DNA of 64,000 nucleotides from Thermoplasmata archaeon (GTDB lineage Archaea; Thermoplasmatota; Thermoplasmata; Lutacidiplasmatales; UBA184). The position numbers were made by a program, and so were the translations under genes. The stretch covers positions 1,990 through 65,989 of the forward strand of contig DAHVCH010000011.1 of NCBI GenBank assembly GCA_027314165.1. Reading direction: 5' to 3'. Numbering within the stretch: the first letter of the stretch is position 1; each line of letters begins with the position of its first letter. Positions 4,046-54,262 of the stretch are shown piece after piece. The notes beneath the pieces are model-generated. The model saw nothing but the letters and a program-made list of their open reading frames with translations. It made no database searches and had not been told where the DNA came from.

Positions 4046-5100
4046 TCTCCACCCCCCAGCGTCGTCGCGGTCGCGAGCTCGACCCGCGTGAAGCGCTGCG
4101 CCACGAGGTTCACCACCACCGCGACCACAAGGAGGACGAGAGAGAACTCGACGAGCAGGACGAAGAGGTTCGGATAGATGAGGGCGCTATCCAACTGGGA
4201 GAAGATGAAAGAGGCGACCGTCGTGGTCGAGGCGTACAAGTTCGGCGGTAGCGCGATCGAGGTGCCCCCGATCACCATGGCCACCGCGACGCTCTCGCCG
4301 AGAGCGCGACCGAAGCCGAGGAGGACGGCGCTCCACAGGCCGTTGCGCGCGACCGGAAGACGGACCCGACGGACCACCTCCCATCGCGTCGCCCCGACGG
4401 CCAACCCCGCCTCGACAAGGTCTCTCGGAACGCTTCGCAGCGCCTCGCGCATGAGCGCCGTCGTGAGCGGGATGATCATGATGGTCAGAACGAGGACCGC
4501 GAGCAGGGTTCCCCAAGGCCCGATGTCCGATGACGGGCCCCCAAAGCCAGGAAGCCATCCCAGGACGTCCCGGAGCGAGGGCTCCAGCGTGAGCCCGAAG
4601 TAGGGAGCGAGGACGACGAACCCCCAGATCCCGTAGACCACGCTCGGGATGCCCGCGAGCAGGTTCGTGACCATGGAGAGGAGCCGGCCGGGGAGAGGAG
4701 GAAGATAGACCACGGAGGAGATCGCCAACGCGAGGCTGAGCGCTGTCGCCAGGATCAGCGAGAGGGAGGCGGTGAGGAACGTCCCCACCAGGAAGACGCC
4801 GATCCCCCAGCTGGATGCGTCCGGCTCGCCAGGAACGAACCTGTACTGGAAGCCCCAGAAGGTGAGCCCGAAGTCCTTGAGCCCGCTCGCGATGAGCAGC
4901 ACCGCTACGACCGCCCCGAGGATGAGCAGGGGCATCAGGGCGACCGGGCTCCCGAGCCACGCCCCCAACGTCGAGGACCGCGCTTCGTCGGTGGAGGTAC
5001 GGACTTGGGAGGCCGGGGGGGGCGGGGGTTCCCCCGCCCCCGGGGGAAGTGGTTGGGTTTCGGCCGCGTTCAATCTTGGATTCCGGGTCCTGTGCGCCAC
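4042..5100 (-). CDS. pstC: Phosphate ABC transporter permease PstC
   Basis: 352 aa, multi-TM permease (…[39 protein letters not shown]…). The GTG at 5100 directly follows the pstS stop. The true start could be further downstream. Confidence 0.85.
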
Positions 5101-7580: not shown

Positions 7581-7616
7581 AGGTTCCGACAACGAGCCGC
7601 GAACCTTCTGGCGCGC

Positions 7617-7650
7617 ATATATAGATGTAGAAAATAGACTATAGTCTACA
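7617..7650. promoter_or_regulatory. Divergent promoter/operator region: TATA box ATATATAG plus perfect palindrome TAGACTATAGTCTA
   Basis: ATATATAG at 7617-7624 lies about 37-44 nt upstream of the operon's ATG. The 14-bp perfect palindrome at 7635-7648 extends to ACTATAGTCTACA (7638-7650), and this is repeated almost exactly at 7888-7902. Confidence 0.45.
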
Positions 7651-7886
7651 ACATAGAACCCCAGGTGCCGCTCCGGGGCGGTCTCCCACGCTTTTCACAC
7701 CGATGGCAGGCGTAGATCCCCTCGCTCCCAGAAAAGCCCTGCCGGTCGGCGGGGGTTCCCGACCTCGGCGGCCCCCTCGACATTCCTCGAGAGAGCGACG
7801 GCCCTTTCCCGGACCCCCCTTCCGCGCAGCCCCGGGTCTTCCAAAACCTGGGAGACATATGTATCACACCATATGACAATGAAATT

Positions 7887-7902
7887 CACTATAGTGTCTA
7901 CA
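7887..7902. promoter_or_regulatory. CACTATAGTG palindrome + TCTACA: promoter/operator of the MFS phosphate transporter gene
   Basis: 10-bp perfect palindrome at 7887-7896. ACTATAGTGTCTACA matches 7638-7650 apart from one inserted G. It lies about 40-50 nt upstream of ATG 7940. Confidence 0.4.
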
Positions 7903-7939
7903 GGTTCCCCTTATCCCCAACACCCTCGCTCCGCGGCCG

Positions 7940-10155: not shown

Positions 10156-10259
10156 CGCCGCCGCGCGGAGTTTCGGGTGAGCGCGTGGAGGGCGCGCACC
10201 GTTCGAACCGCGGACCTTTCGGTTAACAGCCGATCGCTCTGCCACTGAGCTACGGCGGC
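10156..10259 (-). tRNA. tRNA-Asn (anticodon GTT) interrupted by a ~32-nt insertion (intron) inside the T-loop
   Basis: Minus strand reads GCCGCCG-TA-GCTC-AGTGGCA-GAGC-G-ATCGG-CTGTTAA-CCGAA-AGGTC-CGCGG-TTCGAA[CGGTGCGCGCCCTCCACGCGCTCACCCGAAAC]T-CCGCG-CGGCGGC-G. The acceptor and T stems pair only if the bracketed ~32 nt are removed. The insert itself forms GGTG/CACC and CGCG/CGCG helices. Confidence 0.7.
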
Positions 10260-10288
10260 ACCGGTCGAGCCGACCCGAAGGAGGGTAT

Positions 10289-36202: not shown

Positions 36203-36370
36203 GGGGGTCGTGGGCCACGTACCCACCCCATCTTAAGCCTTGACGGGGAGGCGAGGGCGCCGGGGAGGACCGGAGCGGCGCGCTTCGCCCCCCCGGGGGC
36301 CGGGTCGGGAGGGGGCTGGCCGCGGGCAAGGGCGTTGGCCCGTGAGCGTAGTTTCTTGTGGGGCTAGGAG

Positions 36371-38005
36371 ATGCATCCTCTCGTGGCGACCCCGGAACCC
36401 CGGAGCACCCCCTGGGATCGCACGAGCCTCCCGCTGGAGCGCCTCTCGGAAGAGGAGAGGCGCGTGCTCGCCTACGCCAGCGCCATCGGCAAGGAGTTCG
36501 ACTTCGCCCTGCTGAGGAGCGCGACCGGCCTCTCCGAAGAGCCCCTCGCGGAGCTCCTGGAGCACCTGGTCCACCAGGGGCTCCTCCGGGAGCACCCCGG
36601 GGGAGAGCGGTTCAGCTTCGTCCAGGAGGACGTCCGGATGCGGCTCTACCGGGAGATGACGGAGAGCCGGGTGAGGGTCCTCCACCGGAAGATCGGGGAC
36701 GCCTACGAACAGCTCTACCCCGACCCCCCCGCCGAGATCCTCCCCGAACTGGGGCGGCACTACTTCCTGGGCCGGGTCCACGACCGGTCCTATCGCTACA
36801 ACCGGCGCTCGGCGAGCCTCGCGCGCGAGGCGCTCGCCCCGGAGATCGCCGCGCACCACCTGGAACGGGCGAGAGCGGACCTGAAGGAGCTCCCCGGCGA
36901 CCACCGGGAGGACGAGGCCGGGCTCCTGCTGGAGCTGGGCGAGCTCTACAGCCTGCTGAACGAGGACCTGAAGGCCGACCGCCTCTACGTCGAGGCGCTC
37001 GAGCTCGTCCCGCCGCAGAAGACCGTGCTTCGCGCCTTGATCCTCCTCGCCCGCGCGGACGTCGCCCGGAACCAAGCGCAGGGCGACCGGGGCCGGGAGC
37101 TGTGCGCGGACTCGCTCCGGCTGCTGGAGAAGGAGGGCCACCGTCGCGGCCTCGCCCGGGTCCACCGCCTGCTCGGCCGGATCGCCTCCCTCGAGGGGAA
37201 CACGCGCTCCGCGATCGAGGAGGGGGAGCGGTCGCTCGAGCTCTTGGACCCGAAGGACGACGCCCGCGAGATCGCCCGGTGCTACGTCGATCTGGGGAAC
37301 GCCTTCTCGGCCTCCGCGGAGCCCTCGAGCATCAGCAAAGCCGTGGAGTACTACCGGAACGCGCTGGAGATGGTGGAGAAGCTGGGCGACTGGCACGAAG
37401 CCTCCCGCGCGTGCAACAACCTGGCCGTTGCGGTGGGCACGGACGACCCGAAGGCAGGCGTCTCCTGGCTCGAGAAGGGCCGCACGTTCGCCGAGCGGGC
37501 GCACGACCGCCGGATGGTCGGCTGGACGCTCTTCAACGCGGTGGAGTTCCGGCTGACCCTGGGTCAACTGGACGAGGCGGAGCGCGACAACCGGGAGGCC
37601 CGCCGGGTGCTCGAGCGGCTCCAGGACCCGATCGCTCTCCAGCAGATCGCGATGAACGACGGCCTGCTGGCCATCCGTCGCGGCCGGTTCGGGGAGGCGG
37701 AGGCCGCCTTCCAGCGCTCCCTCCGGCTCGCCGAGGACATGGGGTATCCGCCCCAGATCTCGGAGATGCACCTTCGCCTGGCGCTGCTTTACGACGCTTG
37801 GGGCGACCCCGAGCGGGCCGCGCTGGAGCTCCCGCGCGCGGAGGGGCTGAACGTCGACTCCTACGCGGTGTCCCTGGTCAAGGCCCATCGGGAGCTCCGG
37901 GAGAAGCTCCACGTGGACGGGGGCGGTGGAGAGAGGGGACCCTCCGAGCCGAACGAGCGCCTTCCGGCAACGGGCGACGGGGGCGGCGCGGGTCCTGAGC
38001 ACTAG
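36371..38005 (+). CDS. Winged-helix + TPR protein: NTPase-less paralog of the downstream STAND gene
   Basis: It starts at …LERLSEEERRVLAYASAIGKEFDFALLRSATGLSEEPLAELLEHLVHQGLL…, which aligns by eye with the post-NTPase region of the next gene. TPR-like repeats follow (…ARCYVDLGNAFSA…AVEYYRNALEM…, …EAERDNREARRVLE…). No P-loop is present. Confidence 0.7.
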   Translation: MHPLVATPEPRSTPWDRTSLPLERLSEEERRVLAYASAIGKEFDFALLRSATGLSEEPLAELLEHLVHQGLLREHPGGERFSFVQEDVRMRLYREMTESRVRVLHRKIGDAYEQLYPDPPAEILPELGRHYFLGRVHDRSYRYNRRSASLAREALAPEIAAHHLERARADLKELPGDHREDEAGLLLELGELYSLLNEDLKADRLYVEALELVPPQKTVLRALILLARADVARNQAQGDRGRELCADSLRLLEKEGHRRGLARVHRLLGRIASLEGNTRSAIEEGERSLELLDPKDDAREIARCYVDLGNAFSASAEPSSISKAVEYYRNALEMVEKLGDWHEASRACNNLAVAVGTDDPKAGVSWLEKGRTFAERAHDRRMVGWTLFNAVEFRLTLGQLDEAERDNREARRVLERLQDPIALQQIAMNDGLLAIRRGRFGEAEAAFQRSLRLAEDMGYPPQISEMHLRLALLYDAWGDPERAALELPRAEGLNVDSYAVSLVKAHRELREKLHVDGGGGERGPSEPNERLPATGDGGGAGPEH

Positions 38006-38107: not shown

Positions 38108-40602
38108 GTGGCCGTCGCGCGCCGCAGCTCGAACCCCTCGGTCGCTCACCCGTTCATCGGACGGGGGGAGGTCCTCGAGGCCCTCCGCCGGGCCCTGGCG
38201 AGCCTCCGGGGAGGGAACGGGACCGCCGTCCTCATCCTCGGTGACGCGGGCGTCGGCAAGAGCACGCTCGTCGGCTCCATCACGGAGGCGGCCCGCCGGG
38301 ACGGATGCGTCGTCCTCGAGGGGAGGGCCCTCCCGCGCGACCTTCCGCAGCCGTTCGAACCGCTGAAGGAGGCCATGCGGGGGCTCACGCCCGCCCTCCT
38401 CCACGGTAGCGATGGCGGGGAGAGCGGGCTCCGCGGGATCTGGGTCCCCGAGCGCCCCTCGCCCCCGTCGCTCCTCCCCCTGGGCTTCATGGCCTGGCGC
38501 GAGGCGGGCCCGAGCCCGTCGGAGCGGCCGGAGGAGGAGGCCGGGCCGGACCGGATCTGGGGCACCATCGACCGCGCCTCCGGCGGCGTGGAGGAGGACC
38601 GGCTCGTGCTCTTCGACCGCTTGTACCAGGCGCTCGCGACCGTCTCCCGTCGCCAGCCGGTGCTGCTGGTGCTCGAGGACATCCACCTGGCCGACCGGCC
38701 GACGCTGGAGTTCGTGCAGTACCTCACCCGCCAGTCCCCGGAGCACGCGGTGGGCCTCATCCTGACCTCGGCACCGCTGGACACGCTCGCCCCGGAGGTC
38801 CGGGACCTGTTGGGGCCCCTGGAGCGGGAGGGCCACGTGGAGTCCCATACCCTGCGTCCCCTGAACGTGGAGGAGGTGAGCGACTACCTCCGATGGCTCA
38901 ACGCGGGCGCGGTGCCGGAGGCGGACACGGTCACCCGGCTCTACGCGGAGAGCGAGGGGAACCCGCTCTTCCTCGAGCGGCTCGCGATGGGGGAACGAGG
39001 AGGGCTGGGCGCGGGTCCCGGACGCGCGGGGCAGCGGGGCAGGAAGGGGGGCAGGATGAGCCCTCCTCCGCCGGAGGACCGGCCTCCGAGACCCCGGAGC
39101 GGACGGACGAGGTCGGTCGCAAGCTCCTCGCCTACGGCGCCGTCCTGGGGACCGAGTTCCCGTTCGCGGCCATCGCGCGCGTCTCGGAGGCCGACGAGGA
39201 GACCGTGGCCCGGTCGCTCGAACGGCTGGTCCGCGCGAAGGTCCTGGAGGAGCGGCCGGGCGAGGTCTACGCCTTCCGCACCGCCGCCCAGCGCGAGGAG
39301 GTCCTCTCGTCGCTCACGGAGACCCGGAAGCGGCGGCTCCACCGCCGGTTGGCGGAGGTCGTGGAGGTGCTCGGACCGGACGCCCAGGGCGAGGAGCTCT
39401 GGGTGAAAGAGCTCTCCCTCCACTTCCATCTGGGCGGGCAGGACCTCCGCTCCTTCGAGTACAACTGCCGCCTGTTCGAGCTCACCCGGCACGCCGGTCG
39501 GATCGGCGAGGCCCGCGAGGCGCTCGAGCGTGCGCTCGAGGCCATCCGCCGGCTCCCTCCGGAGCAGAAGGCTCCCCGGGAGCAGGAGCGCGAGGTCCTC
39601 CTTCGGCTCGGAGAGGTGCTGGCCGAGGCGGGAGAGCTCCGCCGGTCCGAGGAGCGCCTCATGGAGGCCTTCACCATGTTCCTGCCGAACGAGCCCCACG
39701 AGGTGATCCAGCTCGCGATCGCCCGCACCCACATGCACCAGGGGAGGATCCTGGAGGCGCGGCGACGCGTTCGCGCGCTCGCCCCGGCCCCCCACGATAC
39801 CTCTCCCCCCTCGAGCGCGGTGGAGGCGGCCGGCCTGCTCGCGGAGGCGGCGATCGCGATGGGGGAACTGGACGAGGGGCTCTCCTGGGCCCGCCGCGCG
39901 CTCCACTTCGCCGAGGGGCTGCCGGACCACGGGCTGCTGGGAGACTCCTGCCGCCGGCTCGGCGAGTACTACCTCCACGAGCTCGACGAGGCGGAGCGGG
40001 CCCGGGCCCTGTTCCAGAGGGCCCTCCGGCTCTTCGAGGAGGAGGGGGACGACCTGCGCCGGGTCCGCCTGGAGCTCCCTCTGGCCGAGCTCGAGTTCCT
40101 GCGCGGCCGCACGGAGGAAGGGTTCCGCAGGCTGGGCACCGTGGCCCGATGGGGCGAGGAGCGGGGGGCCCACCTCCTCCACGCTCAGGCGCTCCTCCGA
40201 GAGAGCCATCACGCCCTCACCACCGGAGAGCTGGAGCGGTCGGAGAGGTCGCTCGCGAAGGCGCGCGGGCTCGTGCCCCCGGAGAACGGTCCCAGCTTCG
40301 AAGTGCACTACGCCCTCCTGGACGGACGCCACGCCCACCGGCGCGGCGACCACGCCCGGGCCCGGACCCACCTCGCCCGCGCGGAGGAGCTCGCCCGGAC
40401 GGGAGGGCACACCGGCTACCTCGTCGAGGTCCTCCTGGCGCGGGCCGAGGCGGAGATCGCCCGGGGCGACCTTGCGCAGGCGCGGAGGTCGCTCGACGAG
40501 GCCCATCAGCTAGGGGTGCCCCGGCACGACCAGCGGGTCCGCTGGACGGAGCTCTCCCACGCCGCCCCTCCCCAGGAAGGGAGCGAGGAGCCCAAGGGCT
40601 GA
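38108..40602 (+). pseudogene. STAND-class NTPase (AAA_16-like P-loop) + winged helix + TPR, split over two reading frames (frameshift near 39000-39095)
   Basis: Frame 1 (38108..): FIGRGEVLEALRRALASLRGGNGTAVLILGDAGVGKSTL (Walker A), …PVLLVLEDIHLAD (Walker B), …ESEGNPLFLERL. It then degenerates into R/S/P junk. Frame 2 (open from 38893) continues with …ERTDEVGRKLLAYGAVLGTEFPFAAIARVSEADEETVARSLERLVRAKVLEE… and TPR repeats to 40602. The frames differ by -1, and a G6 run sits at 39046-39051. Confidence 0.65.
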
Positions 40603-42673: not shown

Positions 42674-44956
42674 TCAGGGATACACGGGCGGGCTTCCGTC
42701 CCAGGGAACGGGCGCCGCGCGCTCCGGCTCGGAGCCCGCGAGGGCTTGGGCTTCGGCGCCCGCCCGGTGCCTCCTCGAGACCAGCACGGCCGCCGCCACC
42801 CCCGCACCGGCGATCACCACGACGGCCACGAGCGCGTAGAGGCCGGGTCCGCCCGTGAGGGAGCCGTAGGGCGAAGGGCCGGTCTTCCCCCCGGGGGGGG
42901 ACGAGGTAGGAGGGACGGTCGAACTGGCTCCGACCACGAGGTTGAGCTTCGCCTGGAGGGTGGCCCCCGACGAGTCGTCGACCGTGGCGACCACCTGGAA
43001 CGTCCCGGGGCTGGTGTAGGTGTGGCCCTGCGACACCGAGGTCCCCGAGACCGCAAGCAGTCCGGTGGAAGCGCCGTCGCCGTAGTTCCACGCCACGCGG
43101 TAGGGAGCGGTCCCCCCCTTCACGGTGAGCGTGAACGTGGTGGAGAGCGGCGCGACGCCCTGGCCCGGGCTCGAGCCCAGGGTGGCGGCGAGCGGGCCGG
43201 GGGGCGCGTTGATGACGACCCATGCCGTCGCGCTGGTCGCGTTCGACCGCCCGTCCGTGACGGTGACCGAGGCGCCGTAGGTGCCGACGGTGTTGTACGT
43301 GTACGAGACGGTGGCCCCGGACGTGGCCTGCGTCGTCCCGTCGCCGAACGTCCAGGTGTACGGGCCGTAGGTGCCCGAGCCGCCGGAGGCGTTGGCGGTG
43401 AAGGTGATCGGAGCGGGCACGGTCCCGACGACGGCGCTCGCCAGGAGGGTGACACGGAGCGGATGCGAGATCCCCGCGACCGTCACGACGACCGGCGCGG
43501 AGCTTCCCGTCGCCCCCGCGCTGTCCGTGACCGACACCTTGGCGTCGAAGGTGCCCGCGGAGGTGTAGGTGTGCGAGACCGTGGCCGTCGTGGTGGTCGT
43601 GGCGGAACCGTCGCCGAAGGTCCACGCGTAGAGGGTGTAGGGGGGCGTTCCTCCGCTCACGCTCGCGTCGAGCGAGGTCGTGAACGGCGCCGTGCCGTTG
43701 GCCATCGGGAGCGAGAGGGACACGGAGAGGGCGGGTGGCGCTCCGCTGGAGACGGTCACCGTCCCGTTCGTCGAGTGGCCCACGACGCCCAGCGAGTCGT
43801 TGACCGCGGCGTCCACGGTGTAGGTCCCCACCGAGGCGTAGGTGTGGGTCGCCGTGGGGGAGAGGGACCGGCTGGAGGTGCCGTCACCCCAGAAGAAGCG
43901 GTAGGAGGGATAGACGGTGGAGCCCCCGGTGGCCACGACGCTCGCCGCGACCGTGAGCGGGGCGCTCCCGGAGGTGGGGGAGAGGGTCAGGGCGACCAGC
44001 GGGCGGTCCACGCCGCTGCCGCCCTGGGTCGTCGCGAGGATGTGGATGAACCGGTAGGCGTAGGCGCCTCCCAGGGTCCAGTTCGCCCCGAAGTGCGAGT
44101 TGGTGTGCGCGGCCACGTCCCCGTTCCCGACGTAGACCGCGATGTGGTCCCAGGTGCCGTCCGGGGGGTTCCACTCGTAGTTGATCATGTCCCCGGCCTC
44201 CATCGTCTGGACCCCGTAGACCTGGATCCCCCACCCGTTGTTCAGGAACATGTCCCCGAGCGCCGGAGCGGAGGGTTCGCCGTAGGTCGGGGGGACGCGC
44301 GAAGGGATGTTGATCCCGCCGCCCGCCTGGTGGGGCTCGTTGCCGTCCACGGAGCTCACGAAGTGCGCGCAATCGTCGCCGGAGAGCCCGACGACACTGG
44401 TGCCCTGAGGGTAGGAGACGTAGGTGCCGCCGCTGTTCCAGAAGTACCCGTCGCTGGTGACGACGTTCCAGTACTCCGCCGCGTAGGAGAGCGCCGCCGC
44501 CCGGTCGAACGCGATGGTCTTGCCGGTGAGGTTGGTGAGCCAGGCGGTGCCGTTGGACCCCTCGGCCGACCAGCCGGTGAAGTTGTTGTCCCAGGAGACC
44601 TCCCACCACACGTACCCGTTGGCGAGTGCGCTCCCGGCGACGATGCGTCCCTGCTCGTACTGTTGCTCCACGGTGAAGATCGTGGCGGACTGCGAGGGGG
44701 CCTGCCGGCAGTTCAGCGTCCCGGAGGCGACTTCCACCTGGTCGTTCACCGCGAGCCCGAAGGCGGAGCCCGAGGAGAGGTGGGCCCCGACGCCGCTCAT
44801 GGACAGGGTCGCGGCGTGAGCGAGCGCGGCGTGGGGGAGCGGGGCGGTCGGGCCGCCGGCCGAGATCGCCACGCCCGGGCCCGGGAGGACCGAGACGAGG
44901 GCTGCGAACAGCAGCACGGACGCCGCAACCCCGAACCGGGACGGGCTCGATCTCAT
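42674..44956 (-). CDS. Membrane-anchored secreted protein: signal peptide + SH3b-like + papain-fold amidase (Amidase_6/NlpC-P60-like) + 4 PKD repeats + C-terminal TM
   Basis: Signal peptide MRSSPSRFGVAASVLLFAALVSVL. SH3b-like region …GTLNCRQAPSQSATIFTVEQQYEQGRIVAGSALANGYVWWEVSW…GWSAE. Amidase region …ALSYAAEYWN…GDDCAHFVSSV…GDMINYEW…WDHIAVYVGNGDVAAHTN… with a Cys-His arrangement. PKD motifs YRFFWGDGT, YAWTFGDGS, YTWTFGDGT, VAWNYGDGA. TM LYALVAVVVIAGAGVAAAVLV. Confidence 0.8.
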   Translation of the reverse strand: MRSSPSRFGVAASVLLFAALVSVLPGPGVAISAGGPTAPLPHAALAHAATLSMSGVGAHLSSGSAFGLAVNDQVEVASGTLNCRQAPSQSATIFTVEQQYEQGRIVAGSALANGYVWWEVSWDNNFTGWSAEGSNGTAWLTNLTGKTIAFDRAAALSYAAEYWNVVTSDGYFWNSGGTYVSYPQGTSVVGLSGDDCAHFVSSVDGNEPHQAGGGINIPSRVPPTYGEPSAPALGDMFLNNGWGIQVYGVQTMEAGDMINYEWNPPDGTWDHIAVYVGNGDVAAHTNSHFGANWTLGGAYAYRFIHILATTQGGSGVDRPLVALTLSPTSGSAPLTVAASVVATGGSTVYPSYRFFWGDGTSSRSLSPTATHTYASVGTYTVDAAVNDSLGVVGHSTNGTVTVSSGAPPALSVSLSLPMANGTAPFTTSLDASVSGGTPPYTLYAWTFGDGSATTTTTATVSHTYTSAGTFDAKVSVTDSAGATGSSAPVVVTVAGISHPLRVTLLASAVVGTVPAPITFTANASGGSGTYGPYTWTFGDGTTQATSGATVSYTYNTVGTYGASVTVTDGRSNATSATAWVVINAPPGPLAATLGSSPGQGVAPLSTTFTLTVKGGTAPYRVAWNYGDGASTGLLAVSGTSVSQGHTYTSPGTFQVVATVDDSSGATLQAKLNLVVGASSTVPPTSSPPGGKTGPSPYGSLTGGPGLYALVAVVVIAGAGVAAAVLVSRRHRAGAEAQALAGSEPERAAPVPWDGSPPVYP

Positions 44957-45091
44957 GGAACCTGCGGTCCGCTCCGGCGGGCGGGGGGGCCGCGTACGAG
45001 GGCGAATGCGTGGCCTCATCCTTTATAGGTTGGGGAAGAGCGAACGACCGGGCCCGGTTCTCCGAGAGAGAATTACGTCATCAAGACGGAC

Positions 45092-45122: not shown

Positions 45123-48095
45123 ATGCTTCGCCGTGTCGCACGCGTCCTGAGAGAGACCCCCCTGTCCGCGGCCCTTCTGCTCCTCGTGGCCCTTCTTCTG
45201 CTCCCCGGAGGGGCCCTAGGCTCCGGGCACTTCGGGACCTCGACGCCGACGGCACTCCCGGTACGGGCCTCTGCGGCCGTGCCCGCCGCCCACGCGATCC
45301 CCGCCGTCTACGGGACGACGAGCGTCACCACCTCGGACGCGAAGGTCGCGAACAACCTCGCGATGAACTTCTCGATGGCCTTCCCCACCGCCATCGCGCT
45401 CTCGGCCGGGCAGGACATCAACGTGACGCTCCAGGAGCTCGTGGGGATCAACATCGCGGCCCGCGACATCTCGGAGGCGTCCATCGGCTTCTGGGCCCAC
45501 TACGACGCGGGGAGCTCCACCACGATGGTCTGGCCCGTGGCCATCTTCGGCAACCGCACGGTGACCCACACCGTCGTGGACACCGCGATCTCGCTCACGA
45601 CCCCCGGGACCCTCGTGTTCCGATTGTCCCACGCCCACGGGTACTGGTGGACGTTCTCGACCAACGGTGGCCAGGCCATCGGCTCGGGCGTCCCCGCCTG
45701 GCAGAACGGCACCTACATGCTGAACTCCTCCTCGGCCCTCGGGTACTACTCCCTCGGCTCCCGCTTCACCTTGGCCCCCACCCTCTTCATGAACGAGTCC
45801 GGGCCCTCGCTCCCCATCGCCAGCACGCAGTTCCAGGGCGTCCTGTCCCCCGCGATGCAGTTCAACACCACGACCGTCAGCTACCCGCCGGTGAACGGGC
45901 TCTACCAGGCGCCCAGCACCGCCGGCTACGCGGTCCCGATGGCGGGCTACGACCAGTGCTACGTCTCCGGCTGCCCCTGGAAGGTGGGGAACGACACGGT
46001 GCTCGTGAACTTCCCGAGCCCGGTGCCCTCGGTCACCGCGAACGGGGCCACCCTGTGGGGCGTTCCCCCGCCCCCGCCGGTGAGCTTCCACACCTGGCTC
46101 GGCGCGGAGACCGTCGACCCCAGCTTCATGAACGTCACCGGCGAGCAGATCACGCTCTCGCCCGTCCCCTCGGCGATCCCACCGGGCGGGCTCTTCGCCG
46201 CGCACGAGGCCGCGCTCCCGATCAACGGGACCGACGAGATGTACATCGGGTTCGTGGACGCGAACGTCACCTTCGGGACGCTCGCCTACCAGGGCGTCTA
46301 TCCGTTCTACGCGCTCAGCACCTACAACAGCGGGACCTTCGGCATCGACCTGACCCCGCTCGCGGCCGGGACCCAGCACACGATGTCCATCCAGCACACC
46401 AGCGGCTGGTGGTGGACGGTGCGGCTCGACGGTGGCACCTCGAGCTGGTGCACCGGCATCACCAGCTGCACGGGCAACGGCACGATCCTGCTCAACGCTT
46501 CGACGGCGTGGGGCGAGACGAACATGACCTTCAACGCGGCACCCGGTGGCCGGATCGGCACGGCCGGGTTCTTCGTGCCCATCCCGTACTCGAACCAGCC
46601 GCTCCTGGCCTACTTCGGGAACATGTCGACCTACTCGGTCACGACCTCCATCCAGCTGGACTCCCGCAGCGGGGTCTGGGGCACACCGTTCCTCGGGAAC
46701 GCCTGGAGCTGGGACACCAAGAGCTCCAAGGACGTCCTCGTCGGGAACACCCAGGAACCCTGGGCCATCCCCCCGGGGAGCGTGCTGGTGGAGAACGCCA
46801 CCGCGGCCTACCCCGCCCCCCTGTCCAACACCACCGTGGGCGGCTCGCCCAACCCCTTGTGGATCGGGACGTCGGTGACGGCGGTCGCCACCCCCACCAC
46901 CGTCGCCTCGGGCGGCGGCACCACCACCCTCGCCATCTCCGTCAGCTCCGGCGGGTCGGCGATCTCCAACGCGGTCGTGAACGTCACGGACATCGACGCC
47001 CAGCAGTACGGCCACTGCTCGTCGATCTTCCAGCCCACGGGGACCGCGGGCGACTACTCCGGCACCTGCTGGTTCAACGCCTCGGTCCCGATCCTCCTCA
47101 CGGCCCACCTCCAGGTCACCGTGACCCCGGTCTCGGGCGCGGTGGGCACGACCGTCGTCGTGATCGTCCTGACCCCTCCGCTCACCGTCTCGGCGCTCAT
47201 CGCGGGCACCCCGAGCGGCAGCACGGTCCAGGCCGGTGCGGCGCTCACGGTGGAAGTGTGGACGAACGTCTCGGGAGCCGGTGTCGCGAACGCCTTCCCG
47301 CTGCTGGCCCTGACCCCGGTGGGAGAGGGGCAGATCGGGCCCAACACCACCACGAGCATCGGGTTCTACAGCATCCCGCTCACCATCGCCTCGAACCCCG
47401 CCAGCGCGACGGCGACGCTCACGATCGCCGCCACGGGCGGGGCGGGTGCAGGGTTCGGGGTCGCCACCGCGGCGCCGATCCTGCTCAACATCAACCTGCC
47501 TAAGGCGACGGTGAGCCCGGTGTGGATCTCCGGCAGCGGCCCGTCGTCGATCGCCGCAGGCGCGACGGTGACCTTCTCCGTGAACGTCTCCTCGGGCTCC
47601 GGTCCGATCGTCGGGGCCTTCGTCCACTTCGGGGTCACCTGCAACGGCGGGACCAACTGCACGAGCCAGTTCCCCACGGTGACCGCGCCGTCGGCGACGA
47701 ACGCCCAGGGCGCATCCTCCTGGACCGTGACGGCACCGGCGACCCTTGCGCAGGCCACGACCTTCACGGTCACGGCCACGACGACGCCCAAGGGGTACGC
47801 CTCCGCCTCGGGCGCCGCGCTCCCGGTCACCGTCCAGCCGCCGGGGTCGCCGAACAACAACAACGCGAACAACTCGGGGTCGAGCCCGCTGCTCCTCTAC
47901 GCCATCGTGGGCGTGGTCGTGGTCGCCGTGGTGGCCGTGCTCGCGCTGCTCCTGATGCGGAAGAAGAAGTCCTCGCCTCCCGCCTCGTCCGCCCCGCAGG
48001 GCGGCATGGAGAGCTGGAGCCCGTCGCCGGAGGGCGAAGGGGCGGGCGCGAACGCCGGCGCCGAGCCCCCCGCGGGCCCCTCCGGGTCCGGCTGA
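45123..48095 (+). CDS. Large (990 aa) secreted, heavily N-glycosylation-sequon-rich surface protein with C-terminal TM anchor (S-layer/surface glycoprotein candidate)
   Basis: Signal peptide MLRRVARVLRETPLSAALLLLVALLLLPGGALG. More than 20 N-x-S/T sequons by eye. Internal duplication (…HAHGYWWTFSTNGGQAIGSG…NGTYMLNSSSALG… versus …HTSGWWWTVRLDGGTSSW…NGTILLNASTAWG…). Thr/Ala/Val-rich Ig-like repeats, an Asn-rich stalk (PNNNNANNSG), a TM (LLLYAIVGVVVVAVVAVLALLL) and a short cytoplasmic tail. Confidence 0.7.
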   Translation: MLRRVARVLRETPLSAALLLLVALLLLPGGALGSGHFGTSTPTALPVRASAAVPAAHAIPAVYGTTSVTTSDAKVANNLAMNFSMAFPTAIALSAGQDINVTLQELVGINIAARDISEASIGFWAHYDAGSSTTMVWPVAIFGNRTVTHTVVDTAISLTTPGTLVFRLSHAHGYWWTFSTNGGQAIGSGVPAWQNGTYMLNSSSALGYYSLGSRFTLAPTLFMNESGPSLPIASTQFQGVLSPAMQFNTTTVSYPPVNGLYQAPSTAGYAVPMAGYDQCYVSGCPWKVGNDTVLVNFPSPVPSVTANGATLWGVPPPPPVSFHTWLGAETVDPSFMNVTGEQITLSPVPSAIPPGGLFAAHEAALPINGTDEMYIGFVDANVTFGTLAYQGVYPFYALSTYNSGTFGIDLTPLAAGTQHTMSIQHTSGWWWTVRLDGGTSSWCTGITSCTGNGTILLNASTAWGETNMTFNAAPGGRIGTAGFFVPIPYSNQPLLAYFGNMSTYSVTTSIQLDSRSGVWGTPFLGNAWSWDTKSSKDVLVGNTQEPWAIPPGSVLVENATAAYPAPLSNTTVGGSPNPLWIGTSVTAVATPTTVASGGGTTTLAISVSSGGSAISNAVVNVTDIDAQQYGHCSSIFQPTGTAGDYSGTCWFNASVPILLTAHLQVTVTPVSGAVGTTVVVIVLTPPLTVSALIAGTPSGSTVQAGAALTVEVWTNVSGAGVANAFPLLALTPVGEGQIGPNTTTSIGFYSIPLTIASNPASATATLTIAATGGAGAGFGVATAAPILLNINLPKATVSPVWISGSGPSSIAAGATVTFSVNVSSGSGPIVGAFVHFGVTCNGGTNCTSQFPTVTAPSATNAQGASSWTVTAPATLAQATTFTVTATTTPKGYASASGAALPVTVQPPGSPNNNNANNSGSSPLLLYAIVGVVVVAVVAVLALLLMRKKKSSPPASSAPQGGMESWSPSPEGEGAGANAGAEPPAGPSGSG

Positions 48096-50822: not shown

Positions 50823-52235
50823 TCAGGCGACGGGTCGGGCCATCGCGATGAGGGCTTTGAGCCCCAGGAACTCCTCGGCCTCCTGGGCGCTCAGGATCCC
50901 TTCCTGGACCAGGTAGTCCCGGGGGTTCATCCCGCTCGCCGCGGCCTTCTTGATCACCTCGGCCACCTTGAGGTAGCCAAGGCGGGGCGTGAGCACCGTC
51001 GCGAGGGCGTGGGAGGAGAGCAGGTAGTGCTCCATGCGTTGCGGGTTCGGGCGGATCCCGGCGACGCATCGCTCCGCGAAGACCGGCAGGAAGTTCGAGA
51101 GGAGCCGGCAGGAGAAGAGGACCTCGAAGGCCATCACCGGCATCATCACGTTGATCTCGAACTGGCCGGCCTGGGAGGCGAGGGAGGTCGCGAGGTCGCT
51201 CCCGATGACGTGGAAGCAGACCTGGTTCAGGCACTCCACCATCGAGGGGTTCACCTTCCCCGGCATGATCGAAGAGCCCGGCTGGACCTCCGGGAGGCGG
51301 ATCTCGTCGAGGCCGGTCGCGGGGCCGGAGGTGAGCAGCCGCAGGTCGTTCGCGATCCGGGTGAGCTCCACGGCCGCGGACCGTAGCCACGCCGAGGCCT
51401 CGGAGGCCGCGCGCCGGCTCTGCATCGCCTCGAACGGGTCCCGGGCCGCGCGGAGGGGGACCTTCGCGAGGGCGGAGAGGCGCTCGACGCTCAGGTGGCG
51501 GAAGCCCACCTTCGTGTTGATCCCGCTCCCCACGGCGCTGCCGCCGAGGGCGACCTCGCCCAGGTCCTCCTTCACGTGCGGGAGGGCCTCCAGCACCCGC
51601 CGCAGGGTCGAGGCGTAGGCCTGGAACTCGGACCCGAGCGTGACCGGCATCGCGTCCTGGAGATGCGTCCGCCCGGCCTTCGGGAGCCCCTCGAGCTCCT
51701 TCGCCTTCGTCTCGAGCGCCTGGACGAGGCGAACGAGCGCGGACTCGACCTCCCCGAGGGCGAAGAGCGCCGAGAGGTTGAGGGCGGTGGGGAACGTGTC
51801 GTTCGTGGACTGGCCGCGGTTCACGTGGTCGTTGGGGGAGAGGTAGGCGTAGTCGCCCTTGGCCTTCCCCAGGATCTCGAGCGCACGGTTCGCCAGCACC
51901 TCGTTGACGTTCATGTTCGTCGAGGTGCCGGCCCCCGCCTGGAACACGTCCACGATGAACTGGTCGGCGAACCGCCCGTCGGCCACCTCGCGCGCGGCCT
52001 GGGCGATGGCCCGGGCCCGCTCGGCGTCCAGCACGCCCAGGCGCTCGTTGGCCTCGCAGCAGGCGAGCTTGATGAGCGCGTAGGCCCGGACGAGCTCCGG
52101 GGGCAGGGAGAGCCCGCTCACGGGGAAGTTCTCCTTCGCCCGCAGGGCCTGGACCCCGTAGTAGGCGCCCTGGGGCACCTCCTTCGGGCCAAGGGAATCC
52201 TTCTCGGTGCGCGTGGGAGGCTCCGTCGCGGTCAT
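50823..52235 (-). CDS. aspA: Aspartate ammonia-lyase (fumarase/aspartase superfamily)
   Basis: …EKDSLGPKEVPQGAYYGVQALRAKENFPVSG…, FQAGAGTSTNMNVNEV…, GSSIMPGKVNP signature. The GAGTS variant favours aspartase over FumC. ATG at 52235. Confidence 0.8.
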   Translation of the reverse strand: MTATEPPTRTEKDSLGPKEVPQGAYYGVQALRAKENFPVSGLSLPPELVRAYALIKLACCEANERLGVLDAERARAIAQAAREVADGRFADQFIVDVFQAGAGTSTNMNVNEVLANRALEILGKAKGDYAYLSPNDHVNRGQSTNDTFPTALNLSALFALGEVESALVRLVQALETKAKELEGLPKAGRTHLQDAMPVTLGSEFQAYASTLRRVLEALPHVKEDLGEVALGGSAVGSGINTKVGFRHLSVERLSALAKVPLRAARDPFEAMQSRRAASEASAWLRSAAVELTRIANDLRLLTSGPATGLDEIRLPEVQPGSSIMPGKVNPSMVECLNQVCFHVIGSDLATSLASQAGQFEINVMMPVMAFEVLFSCRLLSNFLPVFAERCVAGIRPNPQRMEHYLLSSHALATVLTPRLGYLKVAEVIKKAAASGMNPRDYLVQEGILSAQEAEEFLGLKALIAMARPVA

Positions 52236-52354
52236 GGTCAGGGCCCGGCAGGAACCTCCCGAGAAAAAGGCGGAGGGTCCCGCGTCAAGAGGCATGGAAA
52301 CCTCCAAAAGACGCTCCACCGTGAACCGACAAGAGCGAGGGAGCTCCCGCGCGG

Positions 52355-54262
52355 ATGGTCGACCTTTTCCAGTTGCTCTACGACACCACCGCGATCGTCG
52401 CGTACCTGGTGCTGCCCGTCGCGATCTTCGCCGCGCTGTTCCTCCTGGCCTGGGAGCGCGGGCTCGAGGGCGACCTTGTCGGGTTCGGCAAGCGGACCTT
52501 CCTCTTGCTGCTCGTGGGCGGGGTGATCGGCTACGTCGCGAACCTGCCGTTCTTCACGTGGAACGGCTCCGTCCTGATGGTGAACGTGGGGGGTGCGCTC
52601 CTCCCCGTCGCGGTCTCCCTGGTCGTGCTGGACCAGAGGATCCTCCCGGGGCGAACGCGCGAGCTCGCCCTCTTCCTCGGGCTGCTCGCCCTCGCCGTCG
52701 GCGCGACGCTCGTCGCGCTGGTCGAGCTCCCGACACGGCTCGGGCTCGTGGGCTTCCTGGCCTGCTTCGCCCTCTCGGGCGCCCTGCTCGTCGCCCTCCG
52801 ACGGAGGGCCGTTCCCGCCCCCCGGCTGGGCTCGACGGTGGACGCGGTCGCCCCCTTCGTCCTCATCGCGCTCGGGATCTGGGGGACCTACCTGACCACG
52901 ACGGTGGTCCCCGCGGTCGGGATCGTCTCCACGTTCCCGGACTACCTGGTGGCCCCTCTGCTCATCGCCCTCGCCGCGGTGGGGCTCCGCTGGCCACGCC
53001 GCGACGCCCCTGCCCTCGCCTTCGCGGCCTCCACCCTCGGCGTCCTCATCGGCGCCGACATCCTCCACCAGCCGCAGCTCTTCCAGGCGCCCGCCTTCCT
53101 GGGCTCGATCGGGGGCGCCGGGCCGCTCGACCTGGTCTTCCTCTCCGGCCCGTTCGCCTTGGGCGTTGCGCTCGTCGTGGATGTCCTCCTCCGGCGGGCC
53201 ACGGGCCCCTCCCCCCTTGGCGCGGAGAAGGCTCCCTCCGCGCGCCCGTTCGGGCCCGTGCGCGGCTCGGAAGCCCGCTTCTACGAGGGGCTCCACGCCT
53301 ACTCGGAGGGGCGCTACGCCGAGGTGGCTCCCGCCGTGGTCCGGACGCTCGACCGCGACCTGGCCGAGACGCGCCGCGCCCTGGGGCTCCCTGAAGCACC
53401 GGCGGCGGCGGGTCTGGAGCCGCTCCCCGTCCACCCGTTCCTGTCCGCCGACCTGGCGAACCTTCGCCAGGTCGCCCAGGAGCCCCCGGGAACCGCGGTG
53501 CGCGAGGACGCCCGACGGGCGCTGGTGACGGGCTTCCTGGTGCAGCGGGGCTTCCTGGGCCTGCTGGGACGGCGCCTGGCGTTGGTGGGCGACCGTGTGA
53601 AGGCCTTCCTGGTCGACCTGCTCGTGGCGTTCCTACCGTCCATCCCCGCCCTCTACCTCCTCCTGAGGTTGCTGCACCTGGACGTCAACTCCGTCACGGA
53701 CTCCCCGTACACCTCGATCGGCTACCTGGCCGCGATCAGCTGGATCGGCGCCTGGCCGTTCCTGATCTACGCCATCCTTGAGTGGAGGTACGGCGTGACC
53801 CCGGGGAAGCGCCTCCTGGACCTGGTCGTCGTGGGCCCGGACGGGGGCCATCCCTCGATGCTCTCCGCGCTCGCGAGGAACGTCCCGAAGCTCCTCCCCC
53901 TGGCCGCCCTGTCCCTGACGCTGGGGATCGGTCTGCCCTTCGCCTTCCAGACCGCTCCGATCTCGGTGGGGGCGAGCGTCGCGCTCGTCATCATCGGGGC
54001 GGGAGTGTTCATCAGCGGGCTCATCGGCCTGGTCAGCGTGTGGGCGATGCGCGTCAGTCCCCGCCGTCAGAGGGTGGGCGACGTGCTCGGCGCGTCCATG
54101 GTCTGGACGCGGAAGCCCCCGCACGTGCCGGGGATCCTCATGGCGGCGGGGAGCCCGACGGTGTCCCCGCCGGCGGCGCCGTGGGCGCCGCGGGAGGCGC
54201 CTGCGGCCGCTCCGAGCCCGTTGGGGGGGCCGATGGGCCCGCCGCCCCTCCAGCCCTGGTGA
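52355..54262 (+). CDS. Polytopic membrane protein: DUF1614-like N-terminal region + C-terminal RDD-family domain
   Basis: 635 aa. The N-terminal multi-TM region contains …NVGGALLPVAVSL… and …GVLIGADIL…GSIGGAGPLDLVFL…. The C-terminal region …WRYGVTPGKRLLDLVVVGPDGGHPSMLSALARN… is RDD-like. The P/A-rich tail overlaps the Alba 3' end. Confidence 0.55.
   Translation: MVDLFQLLYDTTAIVAYLVLPVAIFAALFLLAWERGLEGDLVGFGKRTFLLLLVGGVIGYVANLPFFTWNGSVLMVNVGGALLPVAVSLVVLDQRILPGRTRELALFLGLLALAVGATLVALVELPTRLGLVGFLACFALSGALLVALRRRAVPAPRLGSTVDAVAPFVLIALGIWGTYLTTTVVPAVGIVSTFPDYLVAPLLIALAAVGLRWPRRDAPALAFAASTLGVLIGADILHQPQLFQAPAFLGSIGGAGPLDLVFLSGPFALGVALVVDVLLRRATGPSPLGAEKAPSARPFGPVRGSEARFYEGLHAYSEGRYAEVAPAVVRTLDRDLAETRRALGLPEAPAAAGLEPLPVHPFLSADLANLRQVAQEPPGTAVREDARRALVTGFLVQRGFLGLLGRRLALVGDRVKAFLVDLLVAFLPSIPALYLLLRLLHLDVNSVTDSPYTSIGYLAAISWIGAWPFLIYAILEWRYGVTPGKRLLDLVVVGPDGGHPSMLSALARNVPKLLPLAALSLTLGIGLPFAFQTAPISVGASVALVIIGAGVFISGLIGLVSVWAMRVSPRRQRVGDVLGASMVWTRKPPHVPGILMAAGSPTVSPPAAPWAPREAPAAAPSPLGGPMGPPPLQPW

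What the first reader, a model, noticed from the sequence alone, without database searches (positions are those of the whole stretch)
42674..44956. Archaeal surface-anchored SH3b + papain-fold amidase + 4xPKD protein: candidate peptidoglycan hydrolase (antibacterial weapon?)
SH3b domains and Amidase_6/NlpC-P60-type Cys-His amidases are bacterial cell-wall-targeting modules. Here the catalytic context is …GDDCAHFVSS… / …WDHIAVYVG… / …AAHTN…. The modules sit behind a signal peptide, are extended by four PKD repeats, and are tethered by a C-terminal TM helix in an archaeon. From the rest of the window, this organism shows no murein-related genes. A displayed murein hydrolase in an archaeon would most plausibly act on neighbouring bacteria (antagonism or predation) or on pseudomurein-like or glycoprotein substrates.
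Basis: partly seen in the sequence, partly recalled or inferred. Interest (0 to 1): 0.7.

Follow-up and report, generated by a model that had tools for sequence, protein, structure and literature searches.

The report
Surface-tethered archaeal bacterial-wall hydrolase
A wall-less Thermoplasmata archaeon carries on its surface, on a long stalk, a conserved cysteine enzyme of the kind that cuts bacterial cell walls. This fits the recently published idea that archaea attack or feed on bacteria, and it adds one overlooked, membrane-anchored example.

Summary
Window 42674-44956 (-) is a real gene with third-codon-position GC (GC3) of 0.94. It encodes a signal peptide, a divergent SH3b domain, an Amidase_6/NlpC-P60 papain-fold domain, four PKD domains, a Ser/Thr/Pro linker, a C-terminal TM helix and a basic tail.

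- **Active site:** the Cys196-His271-His284 triad is invariant or nearly so in 45 homologues. The catalytic domain is under strong purifying selection (dN/dS 0 and 0.14), against about 0.6 for the stalk.
- **Fold:** the best structural matches are SH3b+NlpC/P60 murein endopeptidases.
- **Substrate:** in other archaea and in metagenomic proteins of unknown origin, the same amidase is fused to glucosaminidase, GH25, SLT, 3D and M23 murein-cleaving domains. This points to bacterial peptidoglycan.
- **Host:** a Thermoplasmata archaeon, 95% nt identical to a genome that GTDB places in order UBA184. The window has no murein genes.

The concept is already published. Strock et al. 2025 catalogued archaeal peptidoglycan hydrolases and listed another Amidase_6 protein in the sister genome. 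This protein is absent from their table, probably because its SH3b domain scores below Pfam threshold.

The distinctive feature is a clade-conserved membrane tether on a stalk, which implies action at contact range. The data do not say whether it kills bacteria or scavenges wall debris, nor which bond it cuts. Verdict: new member of a known kind, moderate interest.

The parts
42674..44956 (-). Coding sequence, 760 aa plus stop. An alternative upstream ATG at 45019 would give 781 aa.
   Evidence: ORF list. GC3 is 0.94. Orthologues are 90.5% identical (P0059; the matching locus L002 gives 90.9% by codon alignment) and 57-60% identical (L003).
45022..45027 (-). TATAAA box, a candidate archaeal promoter element. 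Its position argues that the 45019 ATG lies upstream of the transcription start.
   Evidence: Motif position. The promoter role is an inference.
44855..44956 (-). Sec-type signal peptide (aa 1-34; n-region RSSPSR, hydrophobic core FGVAASVLLFAALVSVL)
   Evidence: Hydropathy scan. There is no twin-arginine motif. 32 of the 42 relatives fetched (among the top 43 hits) also have an N-terminal hydrophobic segment.
44537..44767 (-). Divergent SH3b (bacterial SH3, cell-wall-binding type) domain, aa 64-140
   Evidence: SH3_3 scores E = 0.025 / 0.01, below cut-off. Profile A2 hits lysin SH3b structures 5udm and 9kz1. Foldseek gives SH3b-type matches. dN/dS is 0.15-0.25.
44027..44524 (-). Amidase_6 / NlpC-P60 papain-fold catalytic domain, aa 145-310
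   Evidence: Pfam 25.6 bits against a cut-off of 23.2. AF2 pLDDT is about 85-95. Foldseek matches 6biq, 3h41, 2evr, 7cfl and 9ubf. dN/dS is 0 and 0.135.
44369..44371 (-). Codon of the catalytic Cys196 (motif GDDCAHFVS)
   Evidence: Invariant in the 45-sequence alignment A1.
44144..44146 (-). Codon of the catalytic His271 (motif WDHIAVYVG)
   Evidence: At least 90% conserved. It aligns with the histidine of the S-H-V-G-I-Y-I-G stretch of C. difficile Acd24020, 7cfl. By general knowledge of NlpC/P60 enzymes, not checked against the 7cfl structure paper here, this is the catalytic His.
44105..44107 (-). Codon of His284 (motif AAHTN), the third triad residue
   Evidence: At least 90% conserved. 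It aligns with the histidine of the I-H-A-S stretch of 7cfl.
42908..43969 (-). Four tandem PKD (Ig-like) domains, aa about 330-683, forming the stalk
   Evidence: PKD_4 1.7e-41 and PKD 3.3e-36, four stretches each. WxFGDG cores at aa 445, 535 and 623, plus FFWGDG in repeat 1. dN/dS is about 0.6.
42848..42907 (-). Ser/Thr/Pro/Gly-rich linker (aa 684-703)
   Evidence: Read directly from the sequence.
42773..42847 (-). C-terminal transmembrane helix (aa 704-728), followed by RRHR
   Evidence: Kyte-Doolittle hydropathy peaks at 2.8. There is no PGF-CTERM hit in NCBIfam.
42677..42772 (-). Short cytoplasmic tail (aa 729-760)
   Evidence: Sequence, and the positive-inside rule (inference).

Best explanation
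The gene encodes a type-I membrane protein that displays a murein-peptide hydrolase on the outside of a wall-less Thermoplasmata cell.

**Topology (inferred from hydropathy and charge).** After Sec export and signal-peptide removal, the C-terminal helix stays in the membrane with its RRHR tail in the cytoplasm. The Ser/Thr/Pro linker and four PKD domains then form a stalk of roughly 15-20 nm. This length is my estimate from typical Ig-domain size. The SH3b domain and the NlpC/P60-type (Amidase_6) cysteine peptidase sit at the distal end.

**Chemistry (inferred from family and fusion partners; no assay exists).** The SH3b domain docks on peptidoglycan. The Cys196/His271/His284 triad cuts an amide bond in the peptide stem or cross-link. 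Which bond is cut is unknown. By analogy with the nearest solved relatives, gamma-D-Glu-diamino-acid is the first guess.

**Biology (inferred).** The producer has no murein, so it needs no immunity protein, and the substrate must be foreign. That substrate would be the walls of bacteria touching the archaeon, or bacterial wall debris. Because the enzyme is tethered, it acts only at contact range and its products stay next to the cell.

**What is shown.** The domain architecture, conservation of the catalytic residues, purifying selection on the head, the structural class and the fusion partners.

**My split, given peptidoglycan is the substrate.** Feeding on wall material or lysed neighbours (necrotrophy or scavenging) is somewhat more likely than a dedicated killing weapon.
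For: - **Architecture and topology:**
- **Active site:** the triad is invariant or at least 90% conserved in 45 homologues.
- **Fold:** the AF2 catalytic domain has pLDDT 85-95. The best PDB matches are SH3b+NlpC/P60 murein hydrolases: T. vaginalis NlpC2 6biq (E = 6.8e-5), BT_1314 4r0k, YkfC-like 3h41, Npun_R0659 2evr, and C. difficile autolysins 7cfl and 9ubf (TM about 0.65-0.68 relative to the target).
- **Sequence profile:** it touches Acd24020, CwlO and RipA.
- **Fusion partners:** the same amidase is fused to Glucosaminidase+SH3_3 (L005), GH25 (L008; the same N-terminal sequence is read by eye in L012 and L015), SLT (L053, P0075), 3D (P0069) and Peptidase_M23 (P0067).
- **Selection:** dN/dS for the amidase is 0 (0 nonsynonymous changes in 166 codons at dS 0.08) and 0.135. 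For SH3b it is 0.15-0.25, and for the stalk about 0.6.
- **Clade-conserved tether:** the nearest relatives P0059-P0062 and P0064 and the loci L003, L004, L016 and L032 all keep signal peptide, amidase, variable stalk (PKD, Ig-like or PQQ propeller) and C-terminal TM anchor.
- **Host:** a Thermoplasmata archaeon. No murein genes in the window.
- **Precedent:** archaeal peptidoglycan hydrolases kill bacteria. They are prominent in Thermoplasmatota, and the sister genome GCA_021802125.1 has a LysM+Amidase_6 protein (PMC12352652).
Against: - No enzyme of Pfam Amidase_6 was found to be biochemically characterised in the papers I could read. B. subtilis YhbB and YjcM are listed as uncharacterised (PMC10653849).
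- The Amidase_6 score here is marginal, and the SH3b domain is below Pfam threshold with a low-confidence model (pLDDT 40-60).
- NlpC/P60 enzymes also act on non-murein substrates. From my own knowledge, examples are poly-gamma-glutamate, acyl transfer and glutathionylspermidine.
- This protein and its nearest relatives carry no second murein-cleaving domain.
- A tethered enzyme cannot reach murein beneath a Gram-negative outer membrane.
- Only 64 kb of the genome was inspected for wall genes.
Confidence: 0.65

Rival explanations
1. The enzyme acts on the archaeon's own envelope or on a non-murein polymer. Examples are trimming or maturing surface (S-layer-like) glycoproteins, cleaving isopeptide or gamma-glutamyl links in a capsule-like polymer, or remodelling cell-cell contacts.
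For: It is tethered to the producer's own membrane. It sits head-to-head with a 990-aa secreted, TM-anchored, sequon-rich surface protein (45123-48095), and this pairing is kept in L003. From my own knowledge, NlpC/P60 chemistry is not restricted to murein. SH3+NlpC/P60 proteins are listed in many wall-less Thermoplasmatales genomes, which could hint at a housekeeping role.
Against: The synteny is lost in L004, L016, L032 and L005. The family's partner domains (glucosaminidase, GH25, SLT, 3D, M23, SH3b) are all specific to murein. No such endogenous polymer is known to me in Thermoplasmata.
Confidence: 0.2
2. The tether is transient. The head is released by proteolysis in the linker or stalk and then acts as a diffusible bacteriolysin, like the secreted archaeal hydrolases Woldo and Danwoldo.
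For: The published active archaeal peptidoglycan hydrolases are found in culture supernatant (PMC12352652). A flexible low-complexity segment lies between the amidase and the first PKD domain (pLDDT below 40 from fragment residue 252 onward).
Against: The TM anchor is kept in every close relative even though the stalks differ, which suggests that tethering itself is selected. No recognisable processing site was found.
Confidence: 0.1
3. It is a pseudomurein endoisopeptidase-like enzyme aimed at pseudomurein-walled methanogens or at the host's own pseudomurein.
For: It is a cysteine peptidase in an archaeon.
Against: No hit to pseudomurein-binding repeats or to the Pei (C71) family appeared at E <= 1. 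The fusion partners and SH3b domain are bacterial-murein modules. Strock et al. name only Methanobacteria and Methanopyri as pseudomurein makers (PMC12352652).
Confidence: 0.03
4. It is a catalytically dead adhesin in which the old enzyme fold only binds ligands.
For: PKD and SH3 modules are common in adhesins.
Against: The Cys, His and His residues are all retained. The catalytic domain is the most constrained part of the protein (dN/dS 0 and 0.135).
Confidence: 0.02

Closest known systems
Archaeal modular peptidoglycan hydrolases catalogued by Strock et al., PLoS Biol 2025 (PMC12352652). Examples are SH3_3+Amidase_6+Glyco_hydro_25 in Aciduliprofundum boonei (WP_008084055.1) and LysM+Amidase_6 (JAKAAX010000014.1_5) in GCA_021802125.1.
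   Same: An archaeal host without murein. A Sec signal peptide (annotated for the LysM+Amidase_6 entry; blank for the A. boonei entry). An Amidase_6 catalytic module joined to a murein-binding module. The same phylum, and a genome about 95% identical to the window's.
   Different: This protein is not in their table, probably because its SH3b scores below Pfam threshold. It has no glycosidase partner. It carries a four-PKD stalk and a C-terminal membrane anchor. Anchoring is not discussed in that paper: the words 'anchor', 'transmembrane' and 'tethered' occur 0 times. Only M23 enzymes (Woldo, Danwoldo) were tested experimentally there.
Trichomonas vaginalis NlpC/P60 hydrolases (PDB 6biq, 6bim)
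   Same: The best structural match. SH3b plus NlpC/P60 in an organism that makes no peptidoglycan.
   Different: A eukaryotic host, two SH3b domains, no stalk and no membrane anchor. Sequence identity is only about 14%.
Bacterial SH3b+NlpC/P60 murein endopeptidases (YkfC-like BCE_2878 3h41, BT_1314 4r0k, Npun_R0659 2evr) and C. difficile autolysins Acd24020 and Acd33800 (7cfl, 9ubf)
   Same: The fold, the Cys-His-His order, and an N-terminal SH3b preceding the catalytic domain.
   Different: These act on the producer's own wall or on recycled muropeptides. The window protein has family-specific inserts (the conserved PSRVPPTYGEP loop) and less than 20% identity.
Pfam Amidase_6 (PF12671) founders, B. 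subtilis YhbB and YjcM. The family is grouped with the T6SS effector Tae3 in a papain-like classification (PMC10318531).
   Same: It passes the Amidase_6 gathering threshold.
   Different: The founders are uncharacterised (PMC10653849). The classification notes that Amidase_6 may lack a third catalytic residue, whereas this subfamily keeps His284.
Planctomycetota/Verrucomicrobiota NBR1-Ig + Amidase_6 proteins (for example P0010, P0012; loci L017-L074)
   Same: The same amidase subfamily, with 40-54% identity and the GDDCAHFVS and PSRVPPTYGEP motifs.
   Different: Bacterial hosts. An N-terminal NBR1-like Ig domain replaces SH3b. There is no PKD stalk and no TM anchor.

Membership tests
NlpC/P60 superfamily (papain-like, clan CA) | Papain-like alpha+beta fold, with the nucleophile Cys at the start of a helix and the His on a following beta-strand | tested here: met
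   In the AF2 model, helix 137-145 (fragment numbering) starts at the Cys and strand 212-218 carries the His, at pLDDT 85-95. Foldseek matches NlpC/P60 structures with probability 0.9-1.0.
NlpC/P60 superfamily (papain-like, clan CA) | Conserved Cys...His...polar (His/Asp/Asn/Glu) triad in canonical, non-permuted order | tested here: met
   Cys196 is invariant. His271 and His284 are at least 90% conserved in 45 sequences. The two His residues align with the corresponding His residues of 7cfl.
NlpC/P60 superfamily (papain-like, clan CA) | Passes the Pfam NLPC_P60 (PF00877) gathering score | tested here: not met
   14.4 bits against a cut-off of 23. The protein belongs to the sister Pfam family instead.
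Pfam Amidase_6 (PF12671) | Whole-protein score at or above the gathering cut-off | tested here: met
   25.6 bits against 23.2, which is marginal. Homologues score 27-47 bits.
Bacterial SH3 (SH3b, Pfam SH3_3) cell-wall-binding domain | Passes the Pfam SH3_3 gathering score | tested here: not met
   15.2-16.4 bits against a cut-off of 27.
Bacterial SH3 (SH3b, Pfam SH3_3) cell-wall-binding domain | Homology to bona fide SH3b domains by profile, and an SH3 fold | tested here: met
   The region aligns with invariant columns to the SH3_3 domains of L005. Profile A2 hits lysin SH3b structures 5udm (5e-4) and 9kz1 (7e-4). Six of 7 members match SH3_3. Foldseek gives SH3b matches, but the model there is low-confidence.
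PKD domain | Pfam PKD / PKD_4 above cut-off, with WxFGDG-type cores | tested here: met
   140.6 and 123.6 bits, four stretches each. Motifs located.
Archaeal modular peptidoglycan hydrolase as defined by Strock et al. 2025 | [quoted passage not shown] | tested here: inconclusive
   The catalytic domain qualifies, since Amidase_6 is on their list. The binding domain is recognisable only below Pfam threshold. The orthologue in GCA_021802125.1 is absent from their S2 table.
Archaeal modular peptidoglycan hydrolase as defined by Strock et al. 2025 | Demonstrated hydrolysis of bacterial peptidoglycan, or killing of bacteria | not testable with these tools
   This needs recombinant protein and sacculi or live-cell assays.
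Pseudomurein endoisopeptidase (Pei, C71 + pseudomurein-binding repeats) | Hit to the Pei catalytic family or to pseudomurein-binding repeats | tested here: not met
   No such family appeared at E <= 1 in Pfam.
PGF-CTERM / archaeosortase-anchored surface protein | C-terminal PGF-CTERM sorting signal at the extreme C-terminus | tested here: not met
   No NCBIfam hit at E <= 1. The TM helix is followed by a 32-aa tail. A distant relative, P0097, does end in a PGF-type signal.

The most novel reading that the evidence does not exclude
The window protein and its relatives (P0059-P0062, P0064, L003, L004, L016, L032) form a clade of stalk-mounted, membrane-tethered murein hydrolases. Wall-less Thermoplasmata would use them as contact-dependent 'surface teeth' to open adjacent bacteria for predation or necrotrophy. 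This would be a mode of archaeon-on-bacterium attack that needs neither a diffusible toxin, nor a secretion or injection machine, nor an immunity protein.
Probability: 0.25. Interest if true: 0.65.

Novelty: new member of a known kind. Interest (0 to 1): 0.38.

Why it matters
Archaeal antagonism towards bacteria became experimentally grounded only in 2024-2025, and the published catalogue depends on Pfam-threshold domain pairs. This case matters in three ways.

- **The catalogue undercounts.** An orthologue in a genome already in that catalogue was missed because its binding domain is divergent.
- **A small, distinct subfamily.** The amidase subfamily has 233 clusters at 50% identity among 1.84 billion representatives. 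It is repeatedly welded to murein glycosidases and peptidases in archaea.
- **A tethered variant.** One clade is anchored to the cell by a rapidly evolving stalk. This raises a testable ecological question that Strock et al. leave open: killing or scavenging, and diffusible or contact-range action.

The small conserved head (about 250 aa, only two cysteines) is also an easy target for expression.

Tried and rejected
- **Exact look-up of the window protein** in the assembly index found nothing. The window is a 95.4%-identical sister of JAKAAX010000007.1, not that assembly.
- **Single-sequence phmmer against PDB** gave only E = 0.26. Profiles and structure were needed.
- **The 781-aa start at 45019** was rejected. 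The TATA box lies 3 nt upstream of it, and the extra 21 residues (MRPRIRPRTRPPRPPERTAGS) would bury the signal peptide.
- **Phylogeny to test bacterial origin.** The NJ tree put the window clade next to Planctomycetota and Verrucomicrobiota. In 200 bootstraps only the window trio was supported (99%). 'Window clade + PVC' had 27%, and all archaea together had 0%. The direction of transfer is therefore unresolved. A first bootstrap script timed out.
- **Conserved gene neighbourhood as a functional clue.** Synteny exists only with the close relative L003, and with none of L004, L016, L032 or L005.
- **Viral origin.** No BFVD match reached E <= 1e-3, and the flanking genes are housekeeping.
- **Structure of the SH3b region.** It came out at low confidence.
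- **Pseudomurein, PGF-CTERM and Tat-signal readings** were rejected.
Full report
**1. Is it there?**
Window 42674..45019 (-) is an uninterrupted 781-codon ORF. Its GC by codon position is 0.61/0.61/0.94, the pattern of real genes in this ~70% GC window. The long ORFs on the other strand are high-GC artefacts.

A TATAAA box lies at 45027-45022, only 3 nt before the upstream ATG. The 760-aa product also begins directly with a Sec-type signal peptide.

The quoted motifs are present: GDDCAHFVSS, WDHIAVYVG and AAHTN. A hydropathy scan finds exactly two hydrophobic segments. One is the N-terminal signal (aa 5-34). The other is a C-terminal helix (aa 698-729) followed by RRHR and a 32-aa tail.

**2. 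Domains**
Pfam gives four PKD stretches (E = 1.7e-41). Amidase_6 scores 25.6 bits, just above its 23.2 cut-off. NLPC_P60 (14.4 bits) and SH3_3 (15.2 bits) are both below cut-off. So the catalytic call is marginal by HMM alone, and the SH3b call fails by HMM alone. Three further lines settle them.

- **Conserved active site.** The head (aa 60-345) has 58 homologues. In a 45-sequence alignment, D195-C196-A197-H198 is invariant, and His271 and His284 are at least 90% conserved. The two histidines align with the matching histidines of the C. difficile autolysin Acd24020.
- **Fold.** An AlphaFold model built on that alignment has pLDDT 85-95 across the catalytic domain. Its best PDB matches are SH3b+NlpC/P60 murein hydrolases: T. 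vaginalis NlpC2 6biq (E = 6.8e-5), BT_1314, a YkfC-like protein, Npun_R0659, and C. difficile Acd24020 and Acd33800.
- **SH3b by profile.** The SH3-like region aligns, with 18 invariant columns, to the three SH3_3 domains of a Thermoplasmata homologue (L005). The resulting profile hits the SH3b wall-binding domains of phage lysins PlyPy (5e-4) and PlySb (7e-4). Six of the 7 members match SH3_3, best 3e-9. The SH3 part of the model itself is low-confidence (pLDDT 40-60).

**3. Host**
The window encodes archaeal markers: Rpb7-like RpoE, TYW2, TrmB, two HTH_10 regulators, DUF373, archaeal-type ProRS and GAPDH. It also holds a tRNA with what looks like a non-canonical intron.

A scan of species-representative genomes found a Thermoplasmata MAG contig, JAKAAX010000007.1. 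It is 95.4% nt identical to the window over 12.9 kb, so it is a sister strain or species and not the same assembly. GTDB places that genome in order UBA184.

None of about 40 further ORFs scanned has a murein-related domain. That covers only 64 kb.

**4. What does the family do?**
No biochemically characterised Amidase_6 enzyme turned up in what I could read. B. subtilis YhbB and YjcM are listed as uncharacterised. A papain-fold classification groups the family with the T6SS murein amidase Tae3.

The strongest functional evidence here is domain association. In archaeal MAG loci the same amidase subfamily (46-51% identical) is fused to:
- Glucosaminidase + 3 x SH3_3 (L005)
- GH25 muramidase (L008 by Pfam; L012 and L015 carry the same sequence by eye)
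- SLT (L053)

In metagenomic proteins of unknown origin it is fused to:
- SLT/SLT_3 (P0075)
- 3D (P0069)
- Peptidase_M23 (P0067)

Five different murein-cleaving partners, plus SH3b, argue that murein peptide is the family's substrate.

The family is small, with 233 clusters at 50% identity among 1.84 billion representatives. It is overwhelmingly extracellular: 32 of the 42 relatives fetched (among the top 43 hits) have signal-like N-termini.

**5. Selection and the tether**
| Region | dN/dS vs the 95% relative | dN/dS vs L003 |
|---|---|---|
| Amidase | 0 (0 nonsynonymous changes in 166 codons, dS 0.08) | 0.135 |
| SH3b | 0.15 | 0.25 |
| PKD stalk | 0.60 | 0.57 |

The head is a constrained, working module on a fast-evolving stalk.

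The five nearest cluster representatives with complete C-termini (P0059-P0062, P0064), together with L003, L004, L016 and L032, all keep the same plan. That plan is signal peptide, (SH3b), amidase, some stalk (PKD, Cys-containing Ig-like repeats or a PQQ propeller), Ser/Thr linker and TM helix with a basic tail. Tethering therefore looks selected, while the stalk is interchangeable.

GC3 matches that of the neighbours, and synteny with L003 is intact: aminotransferase 81%, UbiE-type methyltransferase 76%, and the divergently transcribed 990-aa surface protein 53%. The gene is therefore a long-resident one and not a recent import.

**6. Mechanism proposed**
After Sec export, the C-terminal helix anchors the protein. 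The linker and four PKD domains hold SH3b and the peptidase roughly 15-20 nm from the membrane (my estimate). SH3b binds murein, and Cys196/His271/His284 cleaves a stem or cross-link amide bond. The bond is unknown. The producer makes no murein, so the target is foreign and no immunity protein is needed. Action is limited to contact range, and the products remain near the cell.

I cannot separate killing from feeding. Tethering is classic for nutrient-harvesting exoenzymes. The window also shows amino-acid catabolic genes (glutamate dehydrogenase, an aminotransferase, an acyl-CoA dehydrogenase). I therefore lean slightly towards scavenging or necrotrophy.

**7. Rivals**
- Action on the archaeon's own surface glycoproteins or another gamma-glutamyl or isopeptide polymer (0.2).
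- Shedding of a soluble head (0.1).
- Pseudomurein isopeptidase (0.03; no Pei or pseudomurein-binding hits).
- Dead adhesin (0.02; contradicted).

**8. Comparison with what is known**
Strock et al. 2025 (PMC12352652) surveyed archaea for catalytic + binding Pfam pairs. They found such proteins in about 5% of genomes, prominently in Thermoplasmatota, and showed that two haloarchaeal M23 enzymes kill bacteria.

Their S2 table lists SH3_3+Amidase_6+GH25 proteins in Aciduliprofundum, Natronoplasma and a Lokiarchaeon. For GCA_021802125.1, the 95% relative of this window, it lists a different protein, LysM+Amidase_6 on contig 014. The orthologue of the present protein on contig 007 is not listed. 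The likely reason is that its SH3b is below threshold.

Their text never mentions anchoring. It explicitly leaves open scavenging versus killing.

So the kind is known. This is an unlisted member whose clade adds a stalk and a membrane tether.

**9. Origin**
An NJ tree placed the window clade beside the Planctomycetota/Verrucomicrobiota NBR1-Ig+Amidase_6 proteins, apart from the other archaeal members. Bootstrap support is 27% or lower for every deep grouping. Archaea are never monophyletic. Inter-domain exchange is likely, but its direction is unresolved.

**10. Verdict**
- The 'weapon' role is unproven.
- Novelty: new member of a known kind.
- Interest is moderate (0.38).

Noticed in passing
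window 45123-48095 (+): A divergently transcribed protein of about 990 aa with a signal peptide, 24 N-x-S/T sequons, an Asn-rich linker and a C-terminal TM helix followed by KKK. It has no Pfam hit. A TTTAT element about 25 nt upstream of the ATG suggests a leaderless mRNA. It may be a major surface (S-layer-like) glycoprotein. The L003 orthologue is only 53% identical, against 76-81% for neighbouring housekeeping genes.
   Followed up: partly
L003 3720-5516: The related Thermoplasmata MAG carries an extra 598-aa secreted, TM-anchored protein (propeller-like repeats plus an Ig-like domain) between the two surface-protein genes. The window lacks it. This locus behaves as a variable surface-protein island.
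   Followed up: partly
window 10170-10262 (-): A tRNA-Asn(GTT)-like gene. Its T-stem 3' half and acceptor 3' half are separated from the rest by an insert of about 32 nt after the T-loop. Rfam reports only a weak hit covering the 5' 54 bases, and ARAGORN misses it. It looks like a non-canonical archaeal tRNA intron.
   Followed up: partly
window 7895-10069 (+), next to 1495-7694 (-): An MFS (Sugar_tr) transporter is fused to a C-terminal PhoU_div/DUF47 domain. It sits beside a pst-type phosphate ABC cluster (PBP_like_2, two permeases) flanked by two PhoU-domain genes. The transporter-regulator fusion is unusual.
   Followed up: no
L009 5470-12021 and L010 74-2794: MAGs labelled Methanophagaceae (ANME-1) and Micrarchaeota encode nearly identical amidase-containing giant surface proteins. 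This could be a binning error or a very recent transfer. By eye, their N-terminal domain looks like an RlpA/3D-type lytic-transglycosylase fold, but Pfam did not call it.
   Followed up: no
window 36368-38005 and 38893-40602 (+): Two tandem TPR_12 / MalT-like TPR proteins lie upstream of the UbiE-type methyltransferase and the aminotransferase. The second is conserved in L003 (66%).
   Followed up: no
window 52325-54262 (+): The stop-to-stop frame, as scanned, carries both DUF1614 and RDD membrane domains. It overlaps the 5' end of the fumarase-type gene on the other strand (50823-52553), so the true start or gene split is unclear.
   Followed up: no
P0097 (metagenomic relative, 1325 aa): A distant family member combines two N-terminal SH3-like domains (read by eye), Big_7, CARDB, Amidase_6, BNR/sortilin repeats and a PGF-CTERM-type archaeosortase signal. 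Surface anchoring of this amidase has therefore arisen by at least two different mechanisms.
   Followed up: no
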